Positions 3,549-19,630 of a DNA stretch of 32,000 bases are shown piece after piece. The position numbers and the translations under genes were made by a program. The DNA is from Methanosphaera stadtmanae DSM 3091 (GTDB lineage Archaea; Methanobacteriota; Methanobacteria; Methanobacteriales; Methanobacteriaceae), in NCBI RefSeq assembly GCF_000012545.1, contig NC_007681.1, positions 960,001 through 992,000 of the forward strand, in the 5' to 3' direction. The notes beneath the pieces are model-generated. The model worked only from the letters and a program-made list of their open reading frames with translations, was not told the DNA's origin and did no database searches. The first letter of the stretch is position 1, and every line of letters starts with the position of its first letter.

Positions 3549-3941
3549 TTAAGTTATTTCTTTATCATTTACTTCACGTTTATAATTAGATGCACTACCT
3601 AATGTATAACCTAAAGTAAAGTAGAAACTTGTTTCTTCATCAGAAATATTCCAATTTTTATCAGATTTAAGAAGTGATATTGATGCTTCTTCTTCAAGTT
3701 CCTTAAATATAGCATCATATTTACGAATTTCATTAATCATAACAGGATATATTGCCCTTATTTTTTCATGACTTAGATTTATATCATAAATTTTATTTAG
3801 AAATGGTGTTTTTTCTAGATTCTTATATTCAATATGCGTTAATTTTCTTGTTAAAAATCCAAGTAAGTATGCAGATTTTTTATCATCACTTACTAAAATT
3901 TCATCGAGAACATACCTATGTTCTATAGTTAAATTATTCAT
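3549..3941 (-). CDS. Hypothetical soluble protein (130 aa), last gene of the K+-channel operon
   Basis: ORF track 3549..3971. The SD-supported start is ATG 3941 (GGAAGGT-ataat-ATG, MNNLTIEH...). It lies 13 nt after the stop of the upstream gene. Ends in a FYFTLGYTLG motif. No family recognised. Confidence 0.6.
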   Translation of the reverse strand: MNNLTIEHRYVLDEILVSDDKKSAYLLGFLTRKLTHIEYKNLEKTPFLNKIYDINLSHEKIRAIYPVMINEIRKYDAIFKELEEEASISLLKSDKNWNISDEETSFYFTLGYTLGSASNYKREVNDKEIT

Positions 3942-3954
3942 ATTATACCTTCCT

Positions 3955-4458
3955 TTAAAATATCTTATCAATCACACTAGTTATTTTTAATACATCATTA
4001 TCTGATTTACCCAATCGTTTCATTGACTTGGCTGCAGCTTCCACTGGAGTATCATGTTCTTCCATCATATATTGACTAACATATGTAATAAACATTCTAA
4101 ATTCCATTTTACTACTAAATGTTTTTCTTAACAACTTATCAATATCTTTTTCCTCTTCAACAGTGGCAAAATTATTCTCATCCCTCATTCCATTTAATGC
4201 CTTGTTAATAGTATCTAAATCATGATACTTAAGAAGCTCATCAAGAAATGCTTCATTCATACGTTTACGATTATCTGTATGTTTACGAATTTTTTTATCA
4301 GACTGCATTCTTTCAAGAAAACCATCATAGAATACTTCTACTTCAGGTTCTGTTTTAAATAATACTTGAACAACATCTAACAAATTTGTATCCACATTTA
4401 ATCCCACAAATTCTTCATCATCCTCTTGTTCCATTTTCTTAACTTCTTCAGGTTTCAT
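3955..4458 (-). CDS. Hypothetical acidic soluble protein (167 aa), third gene of the K+-channel operon
   Basis: ORF track 3955..4527. The SD-supported start is ATG 4458 (AGGAGGA-N9-ATG, MKPEEVKKMEQEDDEEF...), 1 nt after the stop of the upstream channel gene (4460). The longer track start would overlap the channel gene. Confidence 0.6.
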   Translation of the reverse strand: MKPEEVKKMEQEDDEEFVGLNVDTNLLDVVQVLFKTEPEVEVFYDGFLERMQSDKKIRKHTDNRKRMNEAFLDELLKYHDLDTINKALNGMRDENNFATVEEEKDIDKLLRKTFSSKMEFRMFITYVSQYMMEEHDTPVEAAAKSMKRLGKSDNDVLKITSVIDKIF

Positions 4459-4459
4459 T

Positions 4460-5332
4460 CTATGAATCCTCCTCTTTTTCATATTTTTGATTATCAATAT
4501 TATCCTTAAGTATTTGTGTAATCTCATCTAACTTAGTTTGTAATTCCTCAACATCCCTATCAAGACTATCAACTTTTTTTTGTAGAGATCTATTTCTATT
4601 TTTTAGATGTTTAATATATGATTTAACTAAAAGACGAGTTTTTTCCTCTGGTTTTTCCATATACAATGAAGACATTGCAGCAGTAAAAATACTTAAAAAC
4701 AACACCCCCATTATTATAGTTATAATACCAATTAATTTACCTTCAGTTGATATTGGAGTAATATCACCATAACCAACACCAGACAATGTTACAATATTAT
4801 ACCATAATGAATCAAAGAAGTTTGTAAATGATGGATCAATATTTTGAAGTATTATAGAAGATAATATTGTATAAAATACTAAAATAAATGTTAATACTTT
4901 TAATAATCTATTTTGAACAAAATATTTTAAAGACCCATAATCAAATCTTCTAAGAGCATATATCTTAAATATTTGAAATAATTGTAATAGACTTATTAAA
5001 CGAACAAGTCTAAATACTGCAAAAAATCTTAAAAATATGAAATTAAATGGTATCATTGAAAGTATATCTATAACATGTGTTTTTATAAAATCTAATAAAT
5101 TTTTATCAGACTTTCTATATATAGTAATCAGATTAAGAAACAATAAAAAACATACAAATAAATCAAAGATAGACATGAATAACAATTCATCATAGGAAAC
5201 ATTGTATATTGTTATTATAAATATAAATATTAAATCTATAACTGTAACAATAATCAATATGAAATTTTTTATTTCAGTAAATAATTTCCTATTTTCCTCA
5301 GATATATGTATATTTAAAAAATTCATTTTCAT
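4460..5332 (-). CDS. 6TM voltage-sensor-type potassium channel (Ion_trans family) with a C-terminal coiled coil
   Basis: K+ selectivity filter LSGVGYGDITP. S4-like segment FRLVRLISLLQ. Six hydrophobic helices. C-terminal heptad-rich tail (LQKKVDSLDRDVEELQTKLDEITQILKD). Confidence 0.8.
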   Translation of the reverse strand: MKMNFLNIHISEENRKLFTEIKNFILIIVTVIDLIFIFIITIYNVSYDELLFMSIFDLFVCFLLFLNLITIYRKSDKNLLDFIKTHVIDILSMIPFNFIFLRFFAVFRLVRLISLLQLFQIFKIYALRRFDYGSLKYFVQNRLLKVLTFILVFYTILSSIILQNIDPSFTNFFDSLWYNIVTLSGVGYGDITPISTEGKLIGIITIIMGVLFLSIFTAAMSSLYMEKPEEKTRLLVKSYIKHLKNRNRSLQKKVDSLDRDVEELQTKLDEITQILKDNIDNQKYEKEEDS

Positions 5333-5414: not shown

Positions 5415-6215
5415 TTATTTTTTAATTAACTTTATAACTTCATCCATATTATCCTCTAAATAAGAAACATCTTTTTTTATAGATGATAATTTATCCTCTA
5501 TTTTCATAAATTTATCTTCAATTTCATCTGTAGCCTTCTCCAAACCATCCACATACTTAAATACATATCTTCTTTTATTTCTCATGGGTTTTTCATTATA
5601 TTTTGTTGTAAGATAAGCTGTGAATATGGAAATAAGAAAAACACCCATGATTATTGTAAATAATGTGAAAATTTTACTTATAAAACGTAGCGGAACAATA
5701 TCACCATAACCTACAGTAGTCATTGAAACAATATCAAACCATAAACTCTCAAATAAACCATTAAATCCATAATCATAATGTCCTATAAATGATGATACAA
5801 TAAAAAAGTAAATTATTGTAAAGATTATACTTATAAATAATAGATTTTCTAGAATATACCCCTTATTTTTAAGACGATCATTATTTGGAACTAATATTTT
5901 ATATATCTTATATAACTTTAGAAATCTAAGTAATCCCAGTGGATAAAACAATTCAATGGGCACTATTGAAATAATATCTAGAATATGATGCTTAGCAAAG
6001 GAGATATTCTCTTCCTTTGAATATTTATAAATAACTAATAAATCAAGAATTAATAAAAAACATGTTATTTTATCAAATATGTAAATGAATTTTAATTCCA
6101 TAGATGTATGTGTAAAAGGTCCTATAACAATAAATACAATGTCAAGAAGAACAAATGTAAATAAACTAACAATATGTAAATGAAACATTCTTCTAGTTCT
6201 AACTATTTTATACAT
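5415..6215 (-). CDS. 6TM voltage-sensor-type potassium channel, paralog of 4460..5332, with a C-terminal coiled coil
   Basis: Selectivity filter MTTVGYGDIVP. The S4-like segment LRFLKLYKIYK carries a basic residue at every third position. C-terminal coiled-coil-like tail (IEDKFMKIEDKLSSIKKDVSYLEDNMDEVIKLIKK). Confidence 0.8.
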   Translation of the reverse strand: MYKIVRTRRMFHLHIVSLFTFVLLDIVFIVIGPFTHTSMELKFIYIFDKITCFLLILDLLVIYKYSKEENISFAKHHILDIISIVPIELFYPLGLLRFLKLYKIYKILVPNNDRLKNKGYILENLLFISIIFTIIYFFIVSSFIGHYDYGFNGLFESLWFDIVSMTTVGYGDIVPLRFISKIFTLFTIIMGVFLISIFTAYLTTKYNEKPMRNKRRYVFKYVDGLEKATDEIEDKFMKIEDKLSSIKKDVSYLEDNMDEVIKLIKK

Positions 6216-6404
6216 TGATAAAACCTTCTAATTATTATTTAATATTTTTAAAATTATATTATATTAATATTTTAGAAAAATTCTAAATTTATAAATTAAA
6301 TATAGTTATAATAAATTACATTAGATATAAAAATAAAATCTATATTAAATAAACTTTAAAAAAAATATCAAGTTTATAAAAAAAATATTAATTGAAGTGT
6401 AAAC

Positions 6405-8588
6405 ATGAAAAATAAAACTATTATTTTCTCAATTATTATAATTATTTCATTAATTAGTCTAAGTACTCTTTCTGCAACAAACATTGACTCTACTGACACA
6501 CCTATTCATGAAAAACAAACAAACACCCAACAAGTTAACATAAAACTTCCAACTAATAAAATCATTGAAGAAACAACAAATGTTAATAAAAAAGATATAG
6601 TAAAGAAAAATAAAACCACAAAAAAACAAATAAATAAAACCCATTCAATAAATAAAACAAAAAAAGATAACAATAAAACTCAAACAATTAAAACAAAAAC
6701 TAACATTACAAAATCATACAATGATTCTCTTAAAAATTCAGCATGTTGTTCTGTAGTAATACAAGTATCTGACAAGGAATCTATCATATCATTTAGACGT
6801 GATTCATCATATCGTGCAACAATAACCATTGAAAAAACAAAATGGTATGGTACTAACATAACACGTCAATTAAAAACACAGAATGGATACTTCACCCATG
6901 TTATTGTTACACAAGATGGTTGGGTAATGGGATTTGGTGGAAGTGACAAAATAAAAACACAAGCAGATATTGTTAAAACTGCAGGAGAAATGTATTCTAA
7001 AAGAAATATATCATACAGTGGTATGAGTAAAATATTTAATCTACTAAAAACATTAAATATTGGACATACTGTCATTAAATCTCCAAATGGAACAGTAGGT
7101 GTTGCAGCATATAATTCTGGTGGAAAATATCTGATAACCAAAATAAATAATGGTGGTTATGTATGTATTCCAAACAATTTCAAATACTATCATACTGGTA
7201 GCTATTCAAAATATGCACAAAATTCAATAGATGCAGCTATTCAAATTGCAGGACATGATGTTTATGGTATTAACAGACGAAATATTATAACATACCATAG
7301 TACAATTTCATCAAATAATCAAAAACTAAATGTTTATGTAACAAATGATGATGGTAGATATGTTTCAAAATCAACATATAATCTAAAAGATCCAATAAAT
7401 TTTATTGGAAAAACTATTGATACAAGTCAAATACCAAGAATTCCAAATAAGAAATTCATAGGCTCAATTGAATATAAATCACCAACACCACCAATACCAT
7501 CCACATATATTATAACAAATAATGCTAAATATAATAACAATATTTATAATGTATTTAATCGTATAAACAAGTATGCTAACAGTAACAATGTATATAATCT
7601 AAACTTTAAAAAAGGCATATACTACTTTGATGGTATAGAAAATAACACTCTTAAAATAGGAAATAAGAATATAAAAAATGTTACAATAATTATGAATGGA
7701 AATAACAGTATTTTCAGTGGTAAAGATAAAACAAGAATAATAGATATAGTTTCAAATTTCAATGTGATTATTAAAAATATTTCATTTGTAAATGGAAATA
7801 GTACTAATGGTGGAGCTATATCTAACAATGGAAATCTTTCAATAGTATCATGTGTATTTAAAAATAACAAAGCATCAAATGGAGGGGCAATATATAATCA
7901 TGGTATATTAAATGTTGATTCATCAGTATTTACATATAACACGGGAATAGTTGCTAAATCAATCTACAATAATGGAAGTATTATATCAATTAACAATAAC
8001 TGGTGGGGATTAAATAATCCTGATTGGAGTAAGTTACTCTATAATATGAAAAAACCTGATACATATGTTGTTATGAAATTTACTAATGTAACTTCATACT
8101 ATGATTCTGAGATGATGTTTAAAGCAACACTCAATCAACTAAATAATCATAAAACAATTACAACTATTCCAATAAGAGAAATTAAATTATACAGTAGTCT
8201 AAGTAATGTTCAATTTAAAATTAAAATTAATCAGAAAGCAATATTTTCATATTGTGCACCTCCAGCAACTGTTAAAGTTAAAATTGATGAACAGGAAATG
8301 GCTTATACTATAAATAAAATTAACTTAAAAGTTTCACTTATAGGTTCAGATAAAATACAGATAAAAGTTACAGATAGATATAACAAAACAGTGCCCATAG
8401 GTAATGTTGTAGTTAATATAAATGGTAAGAACATAGTTGAAAAAACAGCACTTTTCAATGTTACAAATGGTGTTACACATGTAACAATTCCATCTTCAAT
8501 AAGAAGTTCAAAGTACACTGTTACCACAACATATCTTCAAAATAATATATATCCTCAAACATCAACTAAAACAACACTAATGGTGTAA
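6405..8588 (+). CDS. Secreted Asn/Thr-rich adhesin-like protein. Order of parts: signal peptide, Lys/Asn/Thr linker, Ntn-hydrolase-like domain, beta-helix (PbH1/Pmp-type GGAI) repeats, C-terminal Ig-like module.
   Basis: N-terminal signal sequence (IIFSIIIIISLISLSTLSA/TN). GGAI-type repeats (NGGAISNNGNLSIVSCVFKNNKASNGGAIYNHGILNVDSSVF). The C-terminal module resembles the Ig-like repeats of the next gene. Confidence 0.8.
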   Translation: MKNKTIIFSIIIIISLISLSTLSATNIDSTDTPIHEKQTNTQQVNIKLPTNKIIEETTNVNKKDIVKKNKTTKKQINKTHSINKTKKDNNKTQTIKTKTNITKSYNDSLKNSACCSVVIQVSDKESIISFRRDSSYRATITIEKTKWYGTNITRQLKTQNGYFTHVIVTQDGWVMGFGGSDKIKTQADIVKTAGEMYSKRNISYSGMSKIFNLLKTLNIGHTVIKSPNGTVGVAAYNSGGKYLITKINNGGYVCIPNNFKYYHTGSYSKYAQNSIDAAIQIAGHDVYGINRRNIITYHSTISSNNQKLNVYVTNDDGRYVSKSTYNLKDPINFIGKTIDTSQIPRIPNKKFIGSIEYKSPTPPIPSTYIITNNAKYNNNIYNVFNRINKYANSNNVYNLNFKKGIYYFDGIENNTLKIGNKNIKNVTIIMNGNNSIFSGKDKTRIIDIVSNFNVIIKNISFVNGNSTNGGAISNNGNLSIVSCVFKNNKASNGGAIYNHGILNVDSSVFTYNTGIVAKSIYNNGSIISINNNWWGLNNPDWSKLLYNMKKPDTYVVMKFTNVTSYYDSEMMFKATLNQLNNHKTITTIPIREIKLYSSLSNVQFKIKINQKAIFSYCAPPATVKVKIDEQEMAYTINKINLKVSLIGSDKIQIKVTDRYNKTVPIGNVVVNINGKNIVEKTALFNVTNGVTHVTIPSSIRSSKYTVTTTYLQNNIYPQTSTKTTLMV

Positions 8589-9026
8589 TTACCTACACCT
8601 ACCTTTTTTTTAAAATTATTAATTAAATAAAATTATTCTAAAAAAAACATGTGTCTATACTTATTAATGCTTATTTCATATAATCTAGAGGTTTTTTTAG
8701 AAATTATAAAAATAATACCACAGAAATTTATATATGACACAAATATAATACTACTTCCATATTAGAAAATATGAATTTCACCATTTATTTAATTTAAAAT
8801 CATTGTTAATGTCTATTTTTCCAAAGTATCTAAAACCAATTAGAAATTCTAGTTCTATTTTTAGATTATTATTCGTAATAGATAATATTATTCCAAATTT
8901 ATTGATTTTTTTCATAAAACTATAATTATTAAATATCAATTAAAATATATACATAATATGTTAATATAAATAAATTATTTTTGAATAATTATATTAGATT
9001 AATATATAGATTAAATGGAGATAAAC

Positions 9027-15906: not shown

Positions 15907-16705
15907 TTTCACCAAAATTATTAATTATACTCTCCCTTAAACTAGGATTAACATGATTCATTATGTAATTAAATTGATCTTCTGTTAATTTATAAGTATA
16001 TTTATGAGATTTTCCTCTATAGATTATTTCTCCATCTTTAAGTGCAAATACTGTGTTTAATGGTACTAATTTCCATGGTTTATCATTTAATTTCTGTGTT
16101 GAGAAGTATATTGTCTTGTTTATTCTCTGGTAATGAAGGGAATTTCTTGTATTTGAATGTGCATATGTGTATGTTCCATTGGATATTATTGGATTTAATT
16201 TATTTCCTTCTGCTAGTTTTGATATTATTTTGTTAATGAAGTTAAACTGTTCTCTATCACTTAAGGGTTGTTGTCTTTCTTTGTAGTTAAGTCTGTCAAT
16301 AATGTACATTAATATTCTTTCTGAATCTGTGTTTCCATCTTGTGTTTTTTTATATTTATTAAGAAGATCACACTTGAATATTGTTCCATTATGTATTAGT
16401 ACCCATTTTCTACCATTGTTATCTTCACTGATAAAGGGATGACAATTTGCTACATCCATATTTCCCATTGTTGCAAGTCTTATATGTGCTAGTGCAGATT
16501 TTGTATAAATTGGATTTTTTAGTATTTCTTTTAAGTGTCGACTCTCTGTTGCTTCTATTGGTTCTTTTTCAATGTGTGGCTGTTTGTTGTTCATTAGTGC
16601 TAGCCCCCATCCATGTGGATGCATATTACAATGTCTATAGAAACTTTTTAAGTAATTGTTTATATGGACAGGTTGCTGACTACTAACACCAAATAATTCA
16701 CACAT
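15875..16705 (-). CDS. Class-II (Ntn-type) glutamine amidotransferase / amidohydrolase, YafJ/EgtC-like
   Basis: N-terminal MCELFG (Cys2 nucleophile). HPHGWG, HIRLATMGNMDVANCHPF and VLIHNGTI are all typical of stand-alone GATase-2 proteins. SD GAGGT lies 7 nt before the ATG. The 3' end overlaps the ligase gene by 32 nt. Confidence 0.8.
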   Translation of the reverse strand: MCELFGVSSQQPVHINNYLKSFYRHCNMHPHGWGLALMNNKQPHIEKEPIEATESRHLKEILKNPIYTKSALAHIRLATMGNMDVANCHPFISEDNNGRKWVLIHNGTIFKCDLLNKYKKTQDGNTDSERILMYIIDRLNYKERQQPLSDREQFNFINKIISKLAEGNKLNPIISNGTYTYAHSNTRNSLHYQRINKTIYFSTQKLNDKPWKLVPLNTVFALKDGEIIYRGKSHKYTYKLTEDQFNYIMNHVNPSLRESIINNFGEMHEAEFLNYH

Positions 16706-16836
16706 TGTTTTTACCTCATTTTTATTTTTTTTCCTTTTATATAATACTAGAAATAGATTTTTATAGTATAATATCTCTTTTTTAAGTTATTTAAACTATT
16801 AACATGTTTTTTATTTTAGTAAAAAAAAATCACATA

Positions 16837-16871
16837 ATATAACATTGTTAATCCAGTATATAACATTGTTA
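16837..16871. promoter_or_regulatory. Two perfect copies of ATATAACATTGTTA spaced 21 bp start to start. Each contains the dyad TAACA-T-TGTTA. Candidate operator upstream of the amidotransferase/ligase operon.
   Basis: Read directly: copies at 16837-16850 and 16858-16871, about 130-165 nt upstream of the ATG at 16705. Confidence 0.35.
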
Positions 16872-17170
16872 TGTAATTAATAGTATATAAAATTTTAGAC
16901 AATAAATAATAATACTACTAAAGATTCCCATCAATATCATGTTCCATGTGGAAGCATACTGGTAGGTTGTGTAGTGTGCTTAGGTCTTGGTATATTTTTT
17001 CTAGTAATGTTACGGGTATGTCTACGTATAGATTGTTTTTACATTTTGTGCAGTTGCATTTATTTTTATTTATGGTAACACCTCAAGTTGTTTAATAGTA
17101 CATGTAACGATTAACAAAAAAAAGAGTTTATAATTAATATTAAAAATTAGAATTTGAAATGAACATTGTA

Positions 17171-17262
17171 TAACACATAAAAACAAAACCCCGAGAAAAA
17201 CAAACAACCCGTTCAACAAAACAACAAAAACACTAAACAAAAATACATAAAAAAAATAAAAT
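17171..17262 (-). terminator. Stacked oligo-T tracts (archaeal-type termination signals) downstream of the 108-aa gene. They appear as an A/C-only tract on the plus strand.
   Basis: The minus strand reads TTTTTTTTATGTATTTTTGTTTAGTGTTTTTGTTGTTTTGTTGAACGGGTTGTTTGTTTTTCTCGGGGTTTTGTTTTT. It starts about 45 nt after the stop at 17307. Confidence 0.4.
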
Positions 17263-17306
17263 TATAAATCAAAATAACATTCTCACTGAATAATTATCAT
17301 CTCTTC

Positions 17307-17633
17307 TCAACAAAATTCTGTACCCTCATAATAATATAATCTTTTCCATTGTGGATGTTTTTTTACAAACCATTCAGCAATTTCAAGAGGTGTTTTCCAA
17401 TATTTATAATCCATAGCTGCCCGTTTTACTTTACCTAAAATTTTCATATATGTCTTATGATATTCTCCTTCACTATAAAGGTCAGATAATCTTTTTTGAA
17501 ACTCATCAGTAATTACTGAATATAGATTAAGACCAAGATATTCTTCTGGATGTGCTACCGCATATTCATATAATTCATCTTCAATTTCATGAAGATATTT
17601 TGGATCAGGAGAAGCCCATATTCTTTTTACCAT
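17307..17633 (-). CDS. Uncharacterised small protein (108 aa), paralog A of a tandemly duplicated gene
   Basis: Intact ORF with SD AAGGTG 9 nt before the ATG. About three quarters of residues are identical by eye to 17950..18270, with conserved blocks KYLHEIEDELYEYAVAHPEEY, LYSEGEYHKTYMKIL and EIAEWFVKKHPQWK. Confidence 0.7.
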   Translation of the reverse strand: MVKRIWASPDPKYLHEIEDELYEYAVAHPEEYLGLNLYSVITDEFQKRLSDLYSEGEYHKTYMKILGKVKRAAMDYKYWKTPLEIAEWFVKKHPQWKRLYYYEGTEFC

Positions 17634-17656
17634 ATTTTATCACACCTTAAAAATTA

Positions 17657-17908
17657 TTAATTTGTTATTAATATTATATCGTTTATATTAATTGAATCTA
17701 GAAAATGTTTAGGTAGTGGACCCTTATCAAATTTAATATAGGTTTCATTTGTAATAGGTTTTTCATAGATTTCATAATGATTAAAGTCACTGAAGTATAC
17801 TAATTTACATATTACTGTTTTACCCACATTTTTTTTATTTTTACACCTGTTTATTATATATGAGATTAATGCTTTAAATTTTACCATATTAACATTCATT
17901 ATAACCAC
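17657..17908 (-). CDS. Truncated Panacea/SocA-like (DUF4065) antitoxin-domain protein. Only the N-terminal half is present, so it may be a gene fragment.
   Basis: KALISYIINRCKNKKNVGKTVICKLVYFSDFNHYEIYEKPITNETYIKFDKGPLPKHF matches the family pattern (G-K-T-K-L-x-K-L-L-Y-F-A-D-F...G-x-P-I-T-G-x-x-Y...G-P-V-P). The ORF stops after 83 aa, whereas family members are about 150-170 aa. Start uncertain (GTG 17908, ATG 17899 or ATG 17887). Confidence 0.6.
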   Translation of the reverse strand: MVIMNVNMVKFKALISYIINRCKNKKNVGKTVICKLVYFSDFNHYEIYEKPITNETYIKFDKGPLPKHFLDSININDIILITN

Positions 17909-17949
17909 ATTCCGTAATACAATTAATATATTATTTAGCAGGAAATATT

Positions 17950-18270
17950 TTATTCTTCATCGTCATAATAGTATAATTCTTTCCATTGTGGATGTTTTTT
18001 TACAAACCATTCAGCAATTTCAATAGGTGTTTTCCAATATTCATAATCCATGTCTGCTCGTTTTACTTTATCTAATATTTTCATGTATGTTTTATGGTAT
18101 TCTCCTTCACTATAAAGTTCAGTTAGTTTATTTAGAAACTCATCTGTACTATCCAAAGATAAATTAAGTCCAATATATTCCTCTGGATGTGCTACCGCAT
18201 ATTCATATAGTTCATCTTCAATTTCATGAAGATACTTTTCATTAGGATAAGGCCATAAGTCTTTTACCAT
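17950..18270 (-). CDS. Uncharacterised small protein (106 aa), paralog B of the tandemly duplicated gene
   Basis: Intact ORF with SD AAGGTGA 6 nt before the ATG. Paralogous to 17307..17633. Confidence 0.7.
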   Translation of the reverse strand: MVKDLWPYPNEKYLHEIEDELYEYAVAHPEEYIGLNLSLDSTDEFLNKLTELYSEGEYHKTYMKILDKVKRADMDYEYWKTPIEIAEWFVKKHPQWKELYYYDDEE

Positions 18271-18373
18271 ATTTTATCACCTTAACTTAGTTTGTTATTA
18301 ACTATTATATCGTTTTATTTATATTAATTTTATTATTACTTCAGTATTCCTTTCGTTTCTCGTGTTTTCTACT

Positions 18374-18877
18374 TCAAAGTTTTGTCCTGCCATTATTTGT
18401 TACTGGATTTTCTGGTTTGAAAGGATCATCAGGTAATCCTGGAGGTAATTGTGGATATTTCTCTTTTGATGGTTTATCATGTGATTGAGTTGGATTATTA
18501 TTAGAGGAAGGTGTTGGATTTGGTAATTGTGGATTCTTTTCAGATGGAAGAGATGGAAATTGTTTATGTATTCTTTGTCTTATTCTATCATAGATTTGTT
18601 TATATTTTACACGTGCATCTTGTCTTGTTTCTTCTTCTTGATTATTTAGATTTATTGTAATGTCTATTGTGTGTTTTATGTTTTTGTTTCTGCGTATTTT
18701 ATCATATTTGTGTTCAATGTTATCATAGATTTTATTGTTAAGGTTATAGTCAAAGGTTGGACTTCTTCCATTATAGTATGATTGTATTGTTTCATTTCTG
18801 AATGTATGATGCAGAAGGTATAACTGCATGAATTTATTAAAAGTCTCATCATCTTCAAATACTTCAGGGTGAAACAT
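18374..18877 (-). CDS. Hypothetical protein (167 aa) with a Pro/Gln/Asn-rich low-complexity C-terminus
   Basis: ORF track. No SD before the ATG, and an in-frame stop lies 19 codons upstream. C-terminal tail: PSLPSEKNPQLPNPTPSSNNNPTQSHDKPSKEKYPQLPPGLPDDPFKPENP. Confidence 0.4.
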   Translation of the reverse strand: MFHPEVFEDDETFNKFMQLYLLHHTFRNETIQSYYNGRSPTFDYNLNNKIYDNIEHKYDKIRRNKNIKHTIDITINLNNQEEETRQDARVKYKQIYDRIRQRIHKQFPSLPSEKNPQLPNPTPSSNNNPTQSHDKPSKEKYPQLPPGLPDDPFKPENPVTNNGRTKL

Positions 18878-19225
18878 TAGATAATAATAAAGGTAATCTT
18901 TATTTAAAAGTAGTAAGTATTTAAGAAGAGGTCAATTGTATCTTTACATGTATATAGATACTTTATTATTTGAGTATAATCCATCAAGAAACTACATAAA
19001 GAATTCAAATAATTAAATACAAAGCAAAAACATAAACTTAATGCAACAAAACTATGGATAACATATGAAGATAAGTGGGTAAGAATAAGTCACAAAGAAT
19101 TAGATGGAGAAATAACATGAATAGGAAAGTTTTGTATAACTTAACTAACAAAAATATATAATTAACAAAGTATTAATAATTGTTACATACATTCTCCATA
19201 TAAAAAAAAAATTTATTTTAAATAG

Positions 19226-19630
19226 TTATATAAAGTTGTGTGTGAATTTTTTTATGTTTTCTATGTCATTGTTGTTTGGTCGTCCCGTGTTCATTCCAAC
19301 AAATTCTCCTGGACAATGAAATTCCTTAGAACTTATTGGTATATTATATAGTTGTGCCAATTCTTTTACTTGTTCATATGTTGATTCTATACTTCCTGCT
19401 GTGCTAAAGTTAACTATTAGTCCTATATTTACATTAATGTTGTTGAAAAACTTTGTAATTGCTGGATCTATACTGTTTCCATATATACTACTTCCTAAAA
19501 ATAGTATATCCACATCTTTCTCCAGTGGTTTATCTATTGTTTTTGCAGTTATATTCAGTTCTTCTGCTATTGCCTTTGCTAATTTTTGTGTGTGTCCTGA
19601 TTTTGTATAATATCTTATTTCTATATTCAT
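19226..19630 (-). CDS. Flavodoxin-family protein (short-chain)
   Basis: MNIEIRYYTKSGHTQKLAKAIAEEL is the typical flavodoxin N-terminal FMN phosphate-binding loop (T/S-x-T-G-x-T variant SGHT). Also DILFLGSSIYG. 134 aa. Confidence 0.7.
   Translation of the reverse strand: MNIEIRYYTKSGHTQKLAKAIAEELNITAKTIDKPLEKDVDILFLGSSIYGNSIDPAITKFFNNINVNIGLIVNFSTAGSIESTYEQVKELAQLYNIPISSKEFHCPGEFVGMNTGRPNNNDIENIKKFTHNFI

What the first reader, a model, noticed from the sequence alone, without database searches (positions are those of the whole stretch)
17307..18373. Half of a Panacea/SocA-type antitoxin domain between two diverged tandem copies of an unknown 107-aa gene: candidate novel toxin-antitoxin or gene-cassette locus
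Seen in sequence:
- The 83-aa ORF (17908..17657, minus strand) matches the N-terminal half of DUF4065/Panacea proteins (GKT..CKLVYFSDF..Y..PIT...Y.....GPLP). It stops where family members continue for about 70-80 more residues.
- On each side sits a paralog of a small gene (108 and 106 aa, about three quarters identical). Each has its own strong SD (AAGGTG) and an intact frame.
- Differences between the paralogs cluster at the N-terminus, residues about 38-51, and the C-terminus. Three long blocks are nearly invariant, which suggests selection rather than decay.
- The duplicated DNA unit includes about 60 nt of leader. In copy A this leader forms the last 10 codons (ININDIILITN*) of the Panacea-like ORF. 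In copy B the same stretch is degenerate and non-coding.

This implies one of two histories. Either an ancestral [Panacea gene][small gene] pair was duplicated and one Panacea copy was lost, or the small gene with its leader behaves as a cassette that landed inside the Panacea gene and truncated it.

Established knowledge: Panacea domains are promiscuous antitoxin modules that pair with many unrelated toxin families.

Inference:
- The 107-aa protein could be an undescribed partner (toxin or immunity-like).
- Its C-terminal EIAEWFVKKHPQWK loosely recalls the C-terminal H..PW motif of Panacea proteins, so a split-gene origin is also possible.
- The locus lies between unusually long non-coding flanks (16.7-17.3 kb and 18.9-19.2 kb), consistent with an accessory island.
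Basis: partly seen in the sequence, partly recalled or inferred. Interest (0 to 1): 0.7.

Follow-up and report, generated by a model that had tools for sequence, protein, structure and literature searches.

The report
Orphan immunity genes beside deleted archaeal toxin
The two small paralogous genes are most likely leftover antidote (immunity) genes of a virus-derived, swappable ADP-ribosylating toxin whose own gene has been gutted by a deletion in this gut methanogen, and the half Panacea gene between them is a dead relic rather than their partner.

Summary
The 83-aa ORF is the N-terminal third of a Panacea domain (PF13274 positions 2-42 of 113, E 1.8e-8). It lies between 106- and 108-aa paralogs that are 77% identical.

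Comparison with other Methanosphaera strains shows that the window holds the tail of a hypervariable polymorphic-toxin locus.

- **The toxin gene.** In other strains the upstream 167-aa ORF (18877..18374) is a roughly 590-aa protein. It has a conserved N-terminus, a MuF-like virus head-morphogenesis domain and a swappable C-terminal toxin. That toxin is an ADP-ribosyltransferase (ART), one of two HExxH types, or a fourth type. Each type is followed by its own small gene.
- **The 107-aa family.** It sits about 50 nt downstream of ART-type coding sequence in all retrieved contexts with upstream sequence. These are the chromosomal locus, virus or provirus head modules, and an orphan ART fragment. 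It is therefore most likely the cognate immunity protein. This is inferred, not tested.
- **The window strain.** A 1,210-bp deletion removed the MuF and ART domains. What remains is a stump, a 72-nt 3' remnant and two orphan immunity genes. The shared "leader" is the 3' end of the toxin gene.
- **The Panacea half.** It is a deletion relic. An intact 171-aa Panacea gene sits in the same array in other strains.

A Panacea/107-aa pairing and a split-gene origin are not supported.

The parts
18904..19008 (-). Frameshifted 5' extension of the toxin gene. The 34-aa ORF MNSLCSFLMDYTQIIKYLYTCKDTID... corresponds to the in-frame N-terminus MDYTQIIKYLYTCKDTIDPLLKYLLLLNKDYLYYYL of the L009 and P0023 toxins.
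   Evidence: there is a 1-nt deletion relative to L009. The segment KYLLLLNKDYLYYYL is conserved with the start of the viral homolog P0026.
18374..18877 (-). Stump of the polymorphic toxin gene (167-aa ORF). It equals residues 1-164 of the roughly 590-aa MuF-type toxins, followed by 3 out-of-frame codons and a stop.
   Evidence: Window 19300..18390 matches L009 3760..4667 at 98%. The alignment with P0021 and P0023-P0025 is. tblastn toxN[1-164] gives 93%.
18319..18390 (-). The last 72 nt of the ART toxin gene (...QNIEVENTRNEMNTEIITVKLI*), left just downstream of the 1,210-bp deletion junction (18391|18390). It is now out of frame.
   Evidence: Window 18390..17963 matches L009 5878..6308 at 88%. 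The same junction occurs in L010, L011 and L031.
18271..18318 (-). Leader B: the toxin-immunity intergenic region, with the Shine-Dalgarno sequence AAGGTGAT.
17950..18270 (-). immB: a 106-aa candidate ART-immunity gene (orphan copy B).
   Evidence: Family members follow ART domains in L009, L024, L023, L025, L029 and L032-35.
17693..17908 (-). Panacea (PanA) pseudogene remnant: the first 72 codons, covering PF13274 positions 2-42 of 113.
   Evidence: The homology boundary with L009 is at 17692. Among strains only nonsynonymous changes and tail frameshifts occur.
17634..17692 (-). Leader A: the stop-codon region of an ART toxin gene (AATTAATATAAA), plus intergenic sequence and the Shine-Dalgarno sequence AAGGTG. 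Its first 36 nt (17692..17657) are read through as the tail ...NINDIILITN* of the 83-aa ORF.
   Evidence: the sequence is near-identical to the toxin-immunity junction of L024, where the toxin is intact.
17307..17633 (-). immA: a 108-aa candidate ART-immunity gene (orphan copy A, the terminal cassette).
   Evidence: It is 95% identical to the gene that follows the ART toxin in L024. The block 17938..16701 is 98% identical to L018, a haplotype that carries a different toxin.

Best explanation
The finding lies in the downstream "cassette graveyard" of a polymorphic toxin-immunity locus. The locus sits at a fixed chromosomal site, between a flavodoxin gene and a GATase_4 gene, in a human-gut Methanosphaera.

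**The locus, as shown by strain comparison.** Its master gene encodes a roughly 590-aa protein. The first 310 or so residues are conserved among strains and include a MuF-like head-morphogenesis domain of tailed viruses. The C-terminal 220-285 residues are swapped between strains. The variants are an R-S-ExE ADP-ribosyltransferase (ART), two HExxH metallopeptidase-like domains and a fourth domain. Each variant brings its own small downstream gene. Displaced cassettes accumulate downstream as orphans.

**The window strain, as shown.** A 1,210-bp deletion removed the MuF and ART domains. It left a 167-aa stump, 72 nt of the toxin 3' end, and two diverged copies of the small gene that always accompanies the ART domain.

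**Inferred.**
- The 106- and 108-aa proteins are cognate immunity proteins. They would bind and block the ART domain.
- As orphans, they would protect this non-producer strain against ART toxins made by sibling strains, or injected by MuF::ART-carrying viruses.
- The two copies differ in blocks that could set allele specificity.

**The Panacea half.** It is the 5' part of a PanA antitoxin gene that once sat in the array. Other strains still carry an intact 171-aa PanA there, with an overlapping 136-aa partner ORF. A deletion fused the fragment onto the last roughly 12 nt of an orphan ART gene and its leader. It has no role with the 107-aa genes.
For: 1. **Deletion in the toxin gene.** Window 19300..18390 matches L009 3760..4667 at 98%, and 18390..17963 matches L009 5878..6308. 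L009 4668-5877 is therefore missing from the window.

2. **Polymorphic architecture.** P0021, P0022 and L009 (ART; PF03496 at 27-37 bits against a gathering cut-off of 23.4), P0025 and P0023 (HExxH) and P0024 share 82-97% identical N-termini and have unrelated C-termini. The MuF-like region hits head-morphogenesis phrog_2468 at E 1e-10 to 3e-12.

3. **One small gene per toxin type.** ART is followed by the 108-aa gene, P0025 by a 143-aa gene, P0023 by a 99-aa gene and P0024 by a 92-aa gene. In L019-21 an orphan HExxH C-terminal remnant still precedes the 99-aa gene.

4. **Linkage of the 107-aa family to ART at every divergence level.**
 - L009 and L024, chromosomal.
 - L023, a virus: TerL, portal, MuF::ART (40% identical), a 97-aa homolog, protease, capsid.
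 - L029, an IMG/VR virus, and L033-35, proviruses.
 - L025-28 and L032: an orphan ART core (VFRGQ, FTSTS, EVELTIP) followed by the 109-aa homolog P0018.
 

5. **The leader is the toxin 3' end.** See the alignment.

6. **The copies were kept as coding sequence.** dN/dS between A and B is 0.31 at dS 0.35, with intact frames and Shine-Dalgarno sequences.

7. **The Panacea piece looks unconstrained.** It shows 0 synonymous against 1-5 nonsynonymous codon changes, loss of the conserved Gly of the GP motif (GP to DP), and tail frameshifts. An intact PanA is present in L019-22.

[quoted passage not shown] MuF is a recognised trafficking module of polymorphic toxins, with Euryarchaeota listed among the hosts (PMC3482391).
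Against: - No experiment shows toxicity or neutralisation.
- The 107-aa family matches no known immunity family, solved structure or fold. Pfam, NCBIfam, PADLOC and PHROGs give nothing. The only PDB sequence hits are non-significant (best E 0.024), and Foldseek against PDB and BFVD gives nothing.
- A toxin-immunity complex could not be modelled with the tools allowed.
- Some orphan copies are frameshifted in other strains (L017, L020). Close-allele comparisons give dN/dS of 0.7-0.9. Present-day function of the orphans in this strain is therefore uncertain.
- There are no virus genes around the chromosomal locus, so it is unknown how a MuF-type toxin would be delivered from here.
- The loci were retrieved through look-ups of particular proteins, so haplotype frequencies are biased.
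Confidence: 0.72

Rival explanations
1. The Panacea fragment and the 107-aa genes form, or recently formed, a PanA/PanT-type toxin-antitoxin module, with the 107-aa protein as a new toxin or partner of Panacea.
For: - The genes are adjacent in the window and in about 13 related loci.
- Panacea pairs with many unrelated toxins (PMC8832971).
Against: - Only profile positions 2-42 of 113 of the domain remain.
- The junction with the 107-aa cassette lies in the toxin gene's stop-codon region. It is a deletion or recombination scar, not an operon boundary.
- The 107-aa family occurs without Panacea in L009, L010, L011, L024, L023, L025-29 and L031-35. In each of these it sits next to ART sequence.
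- The intact PanA in L019-22 is paired with a different, overlapping 136-aa ORF.
- Changes in the Panacea fragment among strains are all nonsynonymous.
Confidence: 0.04
2. The 107-aa protein is not an immunity protein. It is instead a virion-assembly or packaging chaperone, or a regulator or activator, of MuF::ART proteins. The chromosomal copies would then be functionless leftovers.
For: - In viruses the gene sits inside the head-morphogenesis module, between MuF::ART and the protease/scaffold gene.
- No similarity to known immunity families was found.
Against: - The gene tracks the ART C-terminal domain, not the MuF domain. MuF proteins with other C-termini carry other small genes.
- It persists next to an orphan ART core that lacks MuF, outside any head module (L025-28, L032).
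- It is retained in two intact copies after toxin loss, with dN/dS 0.31.
- Its mosaic, block-wise hypervariation is typical of toxin-interface evolution.
Confidence: 0.13
3. The origin is the same (ART immunity cassettes), but in this strain everything from 18877 to 17307 is decaying, functionless debris. The intact frames would simply reflect recent loss of the toxin.
For: - The toxin is gutted.
- Frameshifted orphan copies exist in L017 and L020.
- dN/dS is near 0.8-0.9 between close alleles, for example winA against L018A.
- The Panacea piece is clearly unconstrained.
Against: - Both copies have intact frames and Shine-Dalgarno sequences in the window and in nine further loci with the same arrangement. 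The Panacea piece beside them has already picked up damaging changes.
- Intact ART-toxin alleles circulate in the same population: the P0021 cluster has 147 member sequences. Protection by orphan immunity genes is therefore plausible.
Confidence: 0.22
4. Split-gene origin. The 107-aa protein is the detached C-terminal half of a Panacea protein.
For: BLASTP of copy A against the 171-aa PanA gives a colinear 21%-identity alignment to residues 66-166 (E 0.05 for the single comparison). The shuffle p-value is 0.006-0.015.
Against: - The signal is absent for copy B (p 0.1-0.2) and for four distant family members (p 0.16-0.98).
- The 107-aa family gives no PF13274 or phrog_1281 hit.
- Viral and orphan homologs have no Panacea N-half upstream. 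They have an ART domain there.
Confidence: 0.02

Closest known systems
MuF polymorphic toxins of temperate phages (Jamet et al. 2017, PMC5576092; Zhang et al. 2012, PMC3482391), including the MuF-ART protein EFV of an Enterococcus faecalis V583 prophage
   Same: - An N-terminal MuF head-morphogenesis domain is fused to a variable C-terminal toxin domain. ART and metallopeptidase are both common types.
- A small ORF immediately downstream is predicted to encode immunity.
- Distant homologs here (L023, L029, L033-35) sit between the portal and scaffold/capsid genes, exactly as in phages.
   Different: - The host is an archaeon (Methanosphaera).
- The locus in the window and its allelic forms lie at a chromosomal site with no terminase, portal or capsid genes nearby. 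Jamet et al. found MuF toxins exclusively in phages and prophages.
- The locus carries an array of orphan toxin-remnant and immunity cassettes.
- In this strain the MuF and toxin domains are deleted.
- The immunity family matches no described Imm family.
Rhs/CDI-type orphan toxin-immunity arrays (Poole et al. 2011, cited in PMC5576092; general polymorphic-toxin logic of Zhang et al. 2012)
   Same: - C-terminal toxin and immunity cassettes are swapped by recombination at a conserved junction.
- Displaced cassettes persist downstream as 5'-truncated toxin remnants with intact immunity genes.
- Strains with immunity only exist.
   Different: - The trafficking domain is MuF-like, not Rhs, CdiA or a T6SS-associated domain.
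- There are no secretion-system genes nearby.
- The host is an archaeon.
PanA/PanT (Panacea, DUF4065) toxin-antitoxin systems (Kurata et al. 2022, PMC8832971)
   Same: - The 83-aa ORF is a true homolog of the N-terminal part of the Panacea domain.
- An intact PanA with an overlapping downstream ORF lies in the same array in strains L019-22.
   Different: - The window copy lacks profile positions 43-113.
- It has no conserved partner.
- It shows no sign of constraint.
- The adjacent 107-aa genes belong to a different system.
Capsid-packaged, injected ADP-ribosyltransferases of phages (several ADP-ribosyltransferase proteins of virulent phage T4, as discussed in PMC5576092; the T4 protein name Alt is from my own knowledge)
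   Same: The viral homologs (L023, L029) encode an ART fused to a head protein, so delivery together with the DNA is plausible.
   Different: - T4 Alt has no cognate immunity gene and is not polymorphic.
- The target and activity of the protein described here are unknown.

Membership tests
Polymorphic toxin-immunity system (MuF type) | Closely related proteins share the N-terminal trafficking region (MuF domain) but carry unrelated C-terminal toxin domains | tested here: met
   P0021, P0023, P0024, P0025 and L009 have N-terminal regions of about 310 aa that are 82-97% identical, with four unrelated C-termini. The MuF-like region hits phrog_2468 (head morphogenesis) at E about 1e-11. Pfam PF04233 itself did not hit. 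In the window only residues 1-164 survive.
Polymorphic toxin-immunity system (MuF type) | A small gene immediately downstream that is specific to each toxin domain type | tested here: met
   ART is followed by the 97-119-aa family of the finding. P0025-CT is followed by a 143-aa gene, P0023-CT by a 99-aa gene and P0024-CT by a 92-aa gene.
Polymorphic toxin-immunity system (MuF type) | Orphan cassettes: 5'-truncated toxin remnants with immunity genes downstream of the main gene | tested here: met
   In the window, a 72-nt ART remnant precedes immB and a roughly 12-nt remnant precedes immA. In L019-21 an HExxH C-terminal remnant (residues 212-275) precedes the 99-aa gene. In L025-28 an ART core precedes P0018.
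Polymorphic toxin-immunity system (MuF type) | Encoded within a temperate phage or prophage next to terminase, portal and capsid genes (Jamet 2017; Zhang 2012) | tested here: not met
   No virus genes were found in the 32-kb window or in the flanks of the allelic loci. Those flanks hold flavodoxin, hydrolase, ABC transporter, ferritin, GATase_4 and a Big_3_5 protein, and there is no tRNA gene. The feature is met only by the distant homologs L023, L029 and L033-35.
Polymorphic toxin-immunity system (MuF type) | The toxin domain is toxic and is neutralised by its cognate immunity protein | not testable with these tools
   This needs expression assays. Complex prediction was not possible with the structure tool.
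R-S-E ADP-ribosyltransferase toxins (PF03496 ADPrib_exo_Tox) | A domain match above the curated cut-off, with the catalytic Arg, the S-T-S motif and the (E/Q)xE motif | tested here: met
   The feature is met in the allelic toxins, not in the window itself. PF03496 scores 27.1-37.1 bits against a cut-off of 23.4 for L009, P0021, P0022 and P0026. The motifs LYRGQ, FTSTAM and KELEMLLP are conserved. The window keeps only the last 24 codons.
PanA/PanT (Panacea) toxin-antitoxin | A complete Panacea domain (PF13274, 113 positions) | tested here: not met
   Only positions 2-42 are present. The full-length relative covers 1-112 of 113.
PanA/PanT (Panacea) toxin-antitoxin | A conserved two-gene unit of the Panacea gene with its partner across genomes | tested here: not met
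   The 107-aa family occurs without Panacea in at least 15 loci. It is always next to ART sequence where upstream DNA is available. The intact PanA pairs with a different 136-aa ORF.
Known immunity protein families (Pfam Imm families, ARH-type ART immunity such as Tri1) | Sequence or fold similarity to a described immunity family | tested here: not met
   Pfam, PHROGs, PADLOC and NCBIfam gave no hit. The PDB profile search gave nothing significant (best E 0.024, a designed protein). Foldseek searches of the AF2 model (pLDDT 79, pTM 0.70) against PDB and BFVD gave no match with E below 1.

The most novel reading that the evidence does not exclude
The chromosomal MuF-type toxin locus may be a virus-dependent weapon or a shield. 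It has no packaging genes of its own.

- **Weapon.** The host-encoded MuF::toxin proteins could be loaded through their MuF domain into capsids of resident or infecting Methanosphaera viruses and delivered to neighbouring strains.
- **Shield.** Alternatively, the orphan immunity genes kept after toxin loss could act as an antiviral defence, neutralising ART effectors that MuF::ART viruses inject with their DNA.

Either reading would be a host-captured, strain-polymorphic use of a virion-delivered effector and antidote pair in archaea. As far as the literature I could search shows, this has not been described.
Probability: 0.15. Interest if true: 0.8.

Novelty: new member of a known kind. Interest (0 to 1): 0.5.

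Why it matters
- **Competition among gut methanogens.** Antagonism and kin discrimination among archaea are poorly documented. Here a human-gut methanogen shows a textbook polymorphic toxin-immunity hotspot. It has at least four toxin types at one chromosomal site, orphan cassettes, and common "immune non-producer" haplotypes. This points to strain-level competition in gut Methanosphaera populations.
- **A new candidate immunity family.** The locus defines a candidate immunity family for an ADP-ribosyltransferase toxin. The family is restricted to Methanosphaera and its relatives and to their viruses.
- **MuF toxins outside proviruses.** The locus shows that MuF-type toxins, thought to be confined to phages and prophages, can sit outside any provirus.
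- **Annotation.** The "SocA/Panacea antitoxin" label on the 74-83-aa ORF marks a pseudogene fragment. The 167-aa "hypothetical protein" is a truncated toxin.

Tried and rejected
1. **Panacea/107-aa toxin-antitoxin pair.** Rejected on context: ART, not Panacea, is the constant neighbour.

2. **Split Panacea gene.** The marginal BLASTP signal for copy A is not reproduced by the other family members, and no profile hit exists.

4. **Family size.**
 - The indexed 5.8-billion-sequence search found only 5 clusters.
 - The exhaustive 1.84-billion-protein profile search added only P0018, P0019 and a doubtful P0020.

5. **Collection scans.**
 - Two genome-contig scans (immunity profile, toxin P0021) found nothing.
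 - A viral-contig scan with the immunity profile found one locus, L029.
 - Viral-contig scans with P0021 and P0026 found nothing.
 - GenBank phage records gave no tblastn match for the toxin or the immunity protein.

6. **Other negative checks.**
 - Pfam PF04233 (Phage_Mu_F) did not hit the toxins, so the MuF assignment rests on PHROG head-morphogenesis profiles and on synteny in viruses.
 - Rfam found no RNA family in the window.
 - The window has no tRNA gene and no CRISPR-like repeats.

7. **The 136-aa partner of the intact PanA.** It gave no family hit. My impression that it looks RelE-like is unverified.

8. **Prior literature.** A search for prior description (polymorphic toxin + archaea + Methanosphaera) returned no paper. 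The Makarova 2019 mBio survey could not be read.
Full report
**What is in the window**

- The 83-aa ORF matches Pfam PF13274 SocA_Panacea above the curated cut-off (35.7 against 25.7 bits, E 1.8e-8). The match covers only profile positions 2-42 of 113. The ORF also matches phrog_1281 at E 8e-12.
- The two small proteins are 77% identical without gaps.
- Their DNA is the largest direct repeat in the 32-kb window: 300 nt, 87% identity, spacing 637.
- About 50-60 nt of upstream leader is shared. In copy A this leader supplies the last codons of the 83-aa ORF.

**The family of the small gene**

- The indexed search of 5.8 billion proteins found only five clusters. The source names that are given point to Methanosphaera, and none has a Pfam domain.
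- An exhaustive profile search of 1.84 billion representatives added only three distant members: P0018 (109 aa, E 9e-18), P0019 (94 aa) and a doubtful P0020.
- Pfam, PHROGs, PADLOC and NCBIfam gave no hit for the family. A PDB profile search gave nothing significant (best E 0.024).
- With the distant members added to the alignment, AlphaFold2 gave a mostly helical model with pLDDT 79 and pTM 0.70. Foldseek found no analogue in PDB or BFVD.

**The decisive evidence: allelic loci in other strains**

The same chromosomal site, between a flavodoxin gene and a GATase_4 gene, was recovered from many metagenome assemblies.

In L009 the window's upstream 167-aa ORF (18877..18374) is the N-terminus of a 590-626-aa protein. 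The C-terminus of that protein matches PF03496 ADP-ribosyltransferase exoenzyme (27-37 bits against a cut-off of 23.4). It carries the motifs LYRGQ, FTSTAM and KELEMLLP, which form the R-S-ExE triad. The next gene, 48 nt downstream, is a single 108-aa homolog of the finding's gene.

BLAST mapping of the window onto L009 gives three blocks:

| Window | L009 | Identity |
|---|---|---|
| 19300..18390 | 3760..4667 | 98% |
| 18390..17963 | 5878..6308 | 88% |
| 17692..16701 | 5949..6931 | 95% |

Two conclusions follow.
- The window strain lacks 1,210 bp from the interior of the toxin gene. What remains is a stump, a junction at 18391|18390 that shifts the frame, and the last 72 nt of the gene.
- The window has gained a second copy of the unit [toxin 3' end - leader - small gene], together with 270 bp (17962..17693) that include the Panacea piece.

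The same deletion junction is present in L010, L011 and L031, which carry a single small gene.

**The locus is a polymorphic toxin locus**

A search with the L009 toxin recovered proteins whose first 310 or so residues are 82-97% identical but whose C-termini are unrelated:
- ART: P0021, P0022.
- Two HExxH domains: P0025 (YHEMGHAL) and P0023 (YHEMGHTL).
- A fourth domain: P0024.

The conserved part contains a region (...RHTCNDGQIVP...YPGDW...NCLC...) that matches head-morphogenesis and portal-associated PHROG families (phrog_2468, E 1e-10 to 3e-12). I read this as MuF-like. Pfam's own Phage_Mu_F model did not hit.

Each C-terminal type is followed by a different small gene, and older cassettes lie further downstream:

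| Locus | Gene order downstream of the toxin N-terminal part |
|---|---|
| L018 | P0023-CT, 99 aa, Panacea fragment, immA |
| L019 / L021 | P0024-CT, 92 aa, intact 171-aa Panacea gene, overlapping 136-aa ORF, 141 aa, TIGR04076 gene, HExxH-CT remnant, 99 aa, Panacea fragment, immA |
| L017 | P0025-CT, 143 aa, frameshifted immA |

Window block 17938..16701 (spacer, Panacea fragment, leader A, immA and flank) is 98% identical to L018. It is therefore an old terminal module shared by haplotypes that carry different toxins.

This is the organisation described for polymorphic toxin systems with orphan cassettes (PMC3482391; PMC5576092).

**Linkage of the small gene to the ART domain**

Wherever a homolog of the 107-aa gene could be found with upstream DNA, ART coding sequence lies about 25-60 nt upstream.

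- *L023.* A virus head module: large terminase, portal, MuF::ART P0026 (40% identical to the chromosomal toxin over its full length), a 97-aa homolog, a Tad2-like gene, an S78 protease and the major capsid protein.
- *L029.* A 52-kb IMG/VR contig with the same order and a 119-aa homolog.
- *L033-35.* Proviruses in JGI contigs.
- *L025-28 and L032.* An orphan, 5'-truncated ART core (VFRGQ, FTSTS, EVELTIP) followed by P0018. It lies in an island that also holds HepT/MNT, Bro-N and HSDR_N genes.

The small gene follows the ART domain, not the MuF domain and not Panacea. On this basis I infer that it is the cognate immunity protein. The mechanism, binding and occlusion of the ART active site, is inference only.

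**The leader and the Panacea fragment**

The leader alignment shows the following.
- Leader A of the window is nearly identical to the junction in L024, where an intact ART gene ends ...IIIIKLI* and runs into the same intergenic sequence.
- Leader B matches the L009 and L010 junction.
- Similarity between the window's Panacea ORF and toxin-bearing loci begins at AATTAATATAAA, which is the stop-codon region of the toxin gene.

The 83-aa ORF is therefore a fusion. Its first 72 codons come from a Panacea gene and are 56% identical to residues 10-77 of the intact 171-aa PanA of L019 (PF13274 positions 1-112 of 113). These are joined to about 12 nt of toxin 3' end plus leader, read through to a chance stop.

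Among 13 allelic copies, the differences from the window in the Panacea-derived part are all nonsynonymous (0 synonymous against 1-5 nonsynonymous codons). They include KGPLP to RDPLS, which destroys the conserved GP motif. The tails carry 1-nt indels.

I conclude that the fragment is a pseudogene relic, made by a deletion inside the cassette array. L017 shares 24 further nucleotides with the window's Panacea ORF, fused to the 5' end of a 141-aa-type gene. It is explained by another such deletion.

**State of the two small genes**

- Both copies have intact frames and Shine-Dalgarno motifs complementary to the 16S 3' end. That complementarity rests on my own knowledge of Methanobacteriales, not on a tool result.
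- dN/dS between A and B is 0.31 at dS 0.35.
- The alleles are mosaics of three or four variable blocks: the N-terminus, residues about 38-66, 72-83 and the C-terminus. These blocks recombine among strains.
- Close-allele comparisons give higher ratios (0.45-0.88, on few substitutions).
- Two strains have frameshifted copies (L017, L020).

Current function in every strain is therefore not assured.

Intact ART-toxin alleles are common in the data: the P0021 cluster has 147 member sequences. The arrangement stump + immB + Panacea fragment + immA was recovered in nine further loci (L001-L008 and L016). An "immune non-producer" role is plausible but remains inferred.

**Rivals**

- *PanA/PanT pairing.* Contradicted by the context data and by the truncation.
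- *Split Panacea origin.* The evidence is a colinear 21% BLASTP alignment of copy A to PanA residues 66-166 (E 0.05) with a shuffle p of 0.006-0.015. Copy B and four distant members show nothing (p 0.1-0.98). No profile hit exists.
- *Chaperone or regulator role.* This cannot be excluded without experiments. It fits poorly with the gene's persistence beside a MuF-less ART core and after toxin loss.
- *Pure decay.* This remains a real possibility for the present-day state of the orphans.

**Relation to what is known**

MuF-type polymorphic toxins are established for temperate phages of bacteria. About 14% of them carry ART domains, and 89% are followed by a small putative immunity ORF (PMC5576092). 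Zhang et al. list Euryarchaeota among the lineages that have MuF toxins (PMC3482391). The kind is therefore known.

What is new here:
- the immunity family;
- the archaeal gut host;
- the position of a polymorphic MuF locus outside any provirus, with no virus genes in the window or the flanks;
- the orphan array around it.

A full-text search for polymorphic toxins in Methanosphaera returned nothing.

How a MuF toxin encoded away from a virus would be delivered is unknown. Hitch-hiking in capsids of resident viruses, or use of the orphan immunity genes against virus-injected ARTs, are the most novel readings not excluded.

**Verdict**

"Cassette" and "immunity-like" are right. The Panacea partnership and the split gene are wrong.
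- The feature is a real, ordinary-in-logic but previously unannotated member of the polymorphic toxin-immunity class, seen here in its toxin-deleted, immunity-retaining state.

Noticed in passing
window 3549..3971 (-) and 3955..4527 (-): A 140-aa ORF matches only the extreme C-terminus (positions 497-601 of 602) of Cas_TM1802, PF09484, at E 5e-22. It looks like an isolated cas gene fragment. The overlapping 190-aa ORF has no Pfam hit. No CRISPR-like repeats were found in the window.
   Followed up: partly
L023 4706..5035 (gene call 4769..5035): In the Methanobacteriales virus head module, a Tad2-like gene (PF11195, anti-Thoeris family) sits directly after the homolog of the 107-aa gene. It lies between MuF::ART and the prohead protease.
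   Followed up: no
L019 7747..8262 and 8255..8663; L021 3311..3826 and 3819..4229: An intact 171-aa Panacea (PanA) gene overlaps a 136-aa ORF of unknown family (no Pfam, NCBIfam or PADLOC hit). This is a candidate true PanA/PanT pair embedded in the toxin-cassette array. The 136-aa ORF is frameshifted in L019.
   Followed up: partly
L025 738..1025 (likewise in L026 and L027): A second, more distant paralog of the 107-aa family (95 aa, 31% identical) lies about 1 kb upstream of the orphan ART core + P0018 pair. The island also holds HepT/MNT, Bro-N, an AAA ATPase and an HSDR_N gene.
   Followed up: no
L006 479..1456 (-): One haplotype has a different region upstream of the toxin stump. It includes a 325-aa ORF on the opposite strand whose C-terminus is 30% identical to the ART domain.
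   Followed up: no
window 18904..19008 (-): The segment KYLLLLNKDYLYYYL upstream of the annotated toxin start is conserved with the N-terminus of the viral homolog P0026 (MKYLLLLDKDYFYYYLF). The true start of intact toxins is therefore probably upstream of MFHPEVF. The window has a 1-nt deletion here that creates a TGA.
   Followed up: partly
L029 6028..7866; L033 5024..5890: In one viral clade the ART catalytic Arg is replaced by His (LYHVQ, LYHGQ) and the STS motif by SLS or SLG, while the Q/ExE motif is kept. This may mean an altered or lost activity, yet the small downstream gene is retained.
   Followed up: no
window 16706..17306: The 600-nt non-coding stretch between immA and the GATase_4 gene is conserved (93-98%) in all haplotypes, so it is flank and not part of the variable island. 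It has no Rfam match, and its function is unknown.
   Followed up: partly
L019 9697..10023: A TIGR04076-family 108-aa gene (E 2.6e-27) sits inside the cassette array. It has the same length as immA but is unrelated to it.
   Followed up: partly
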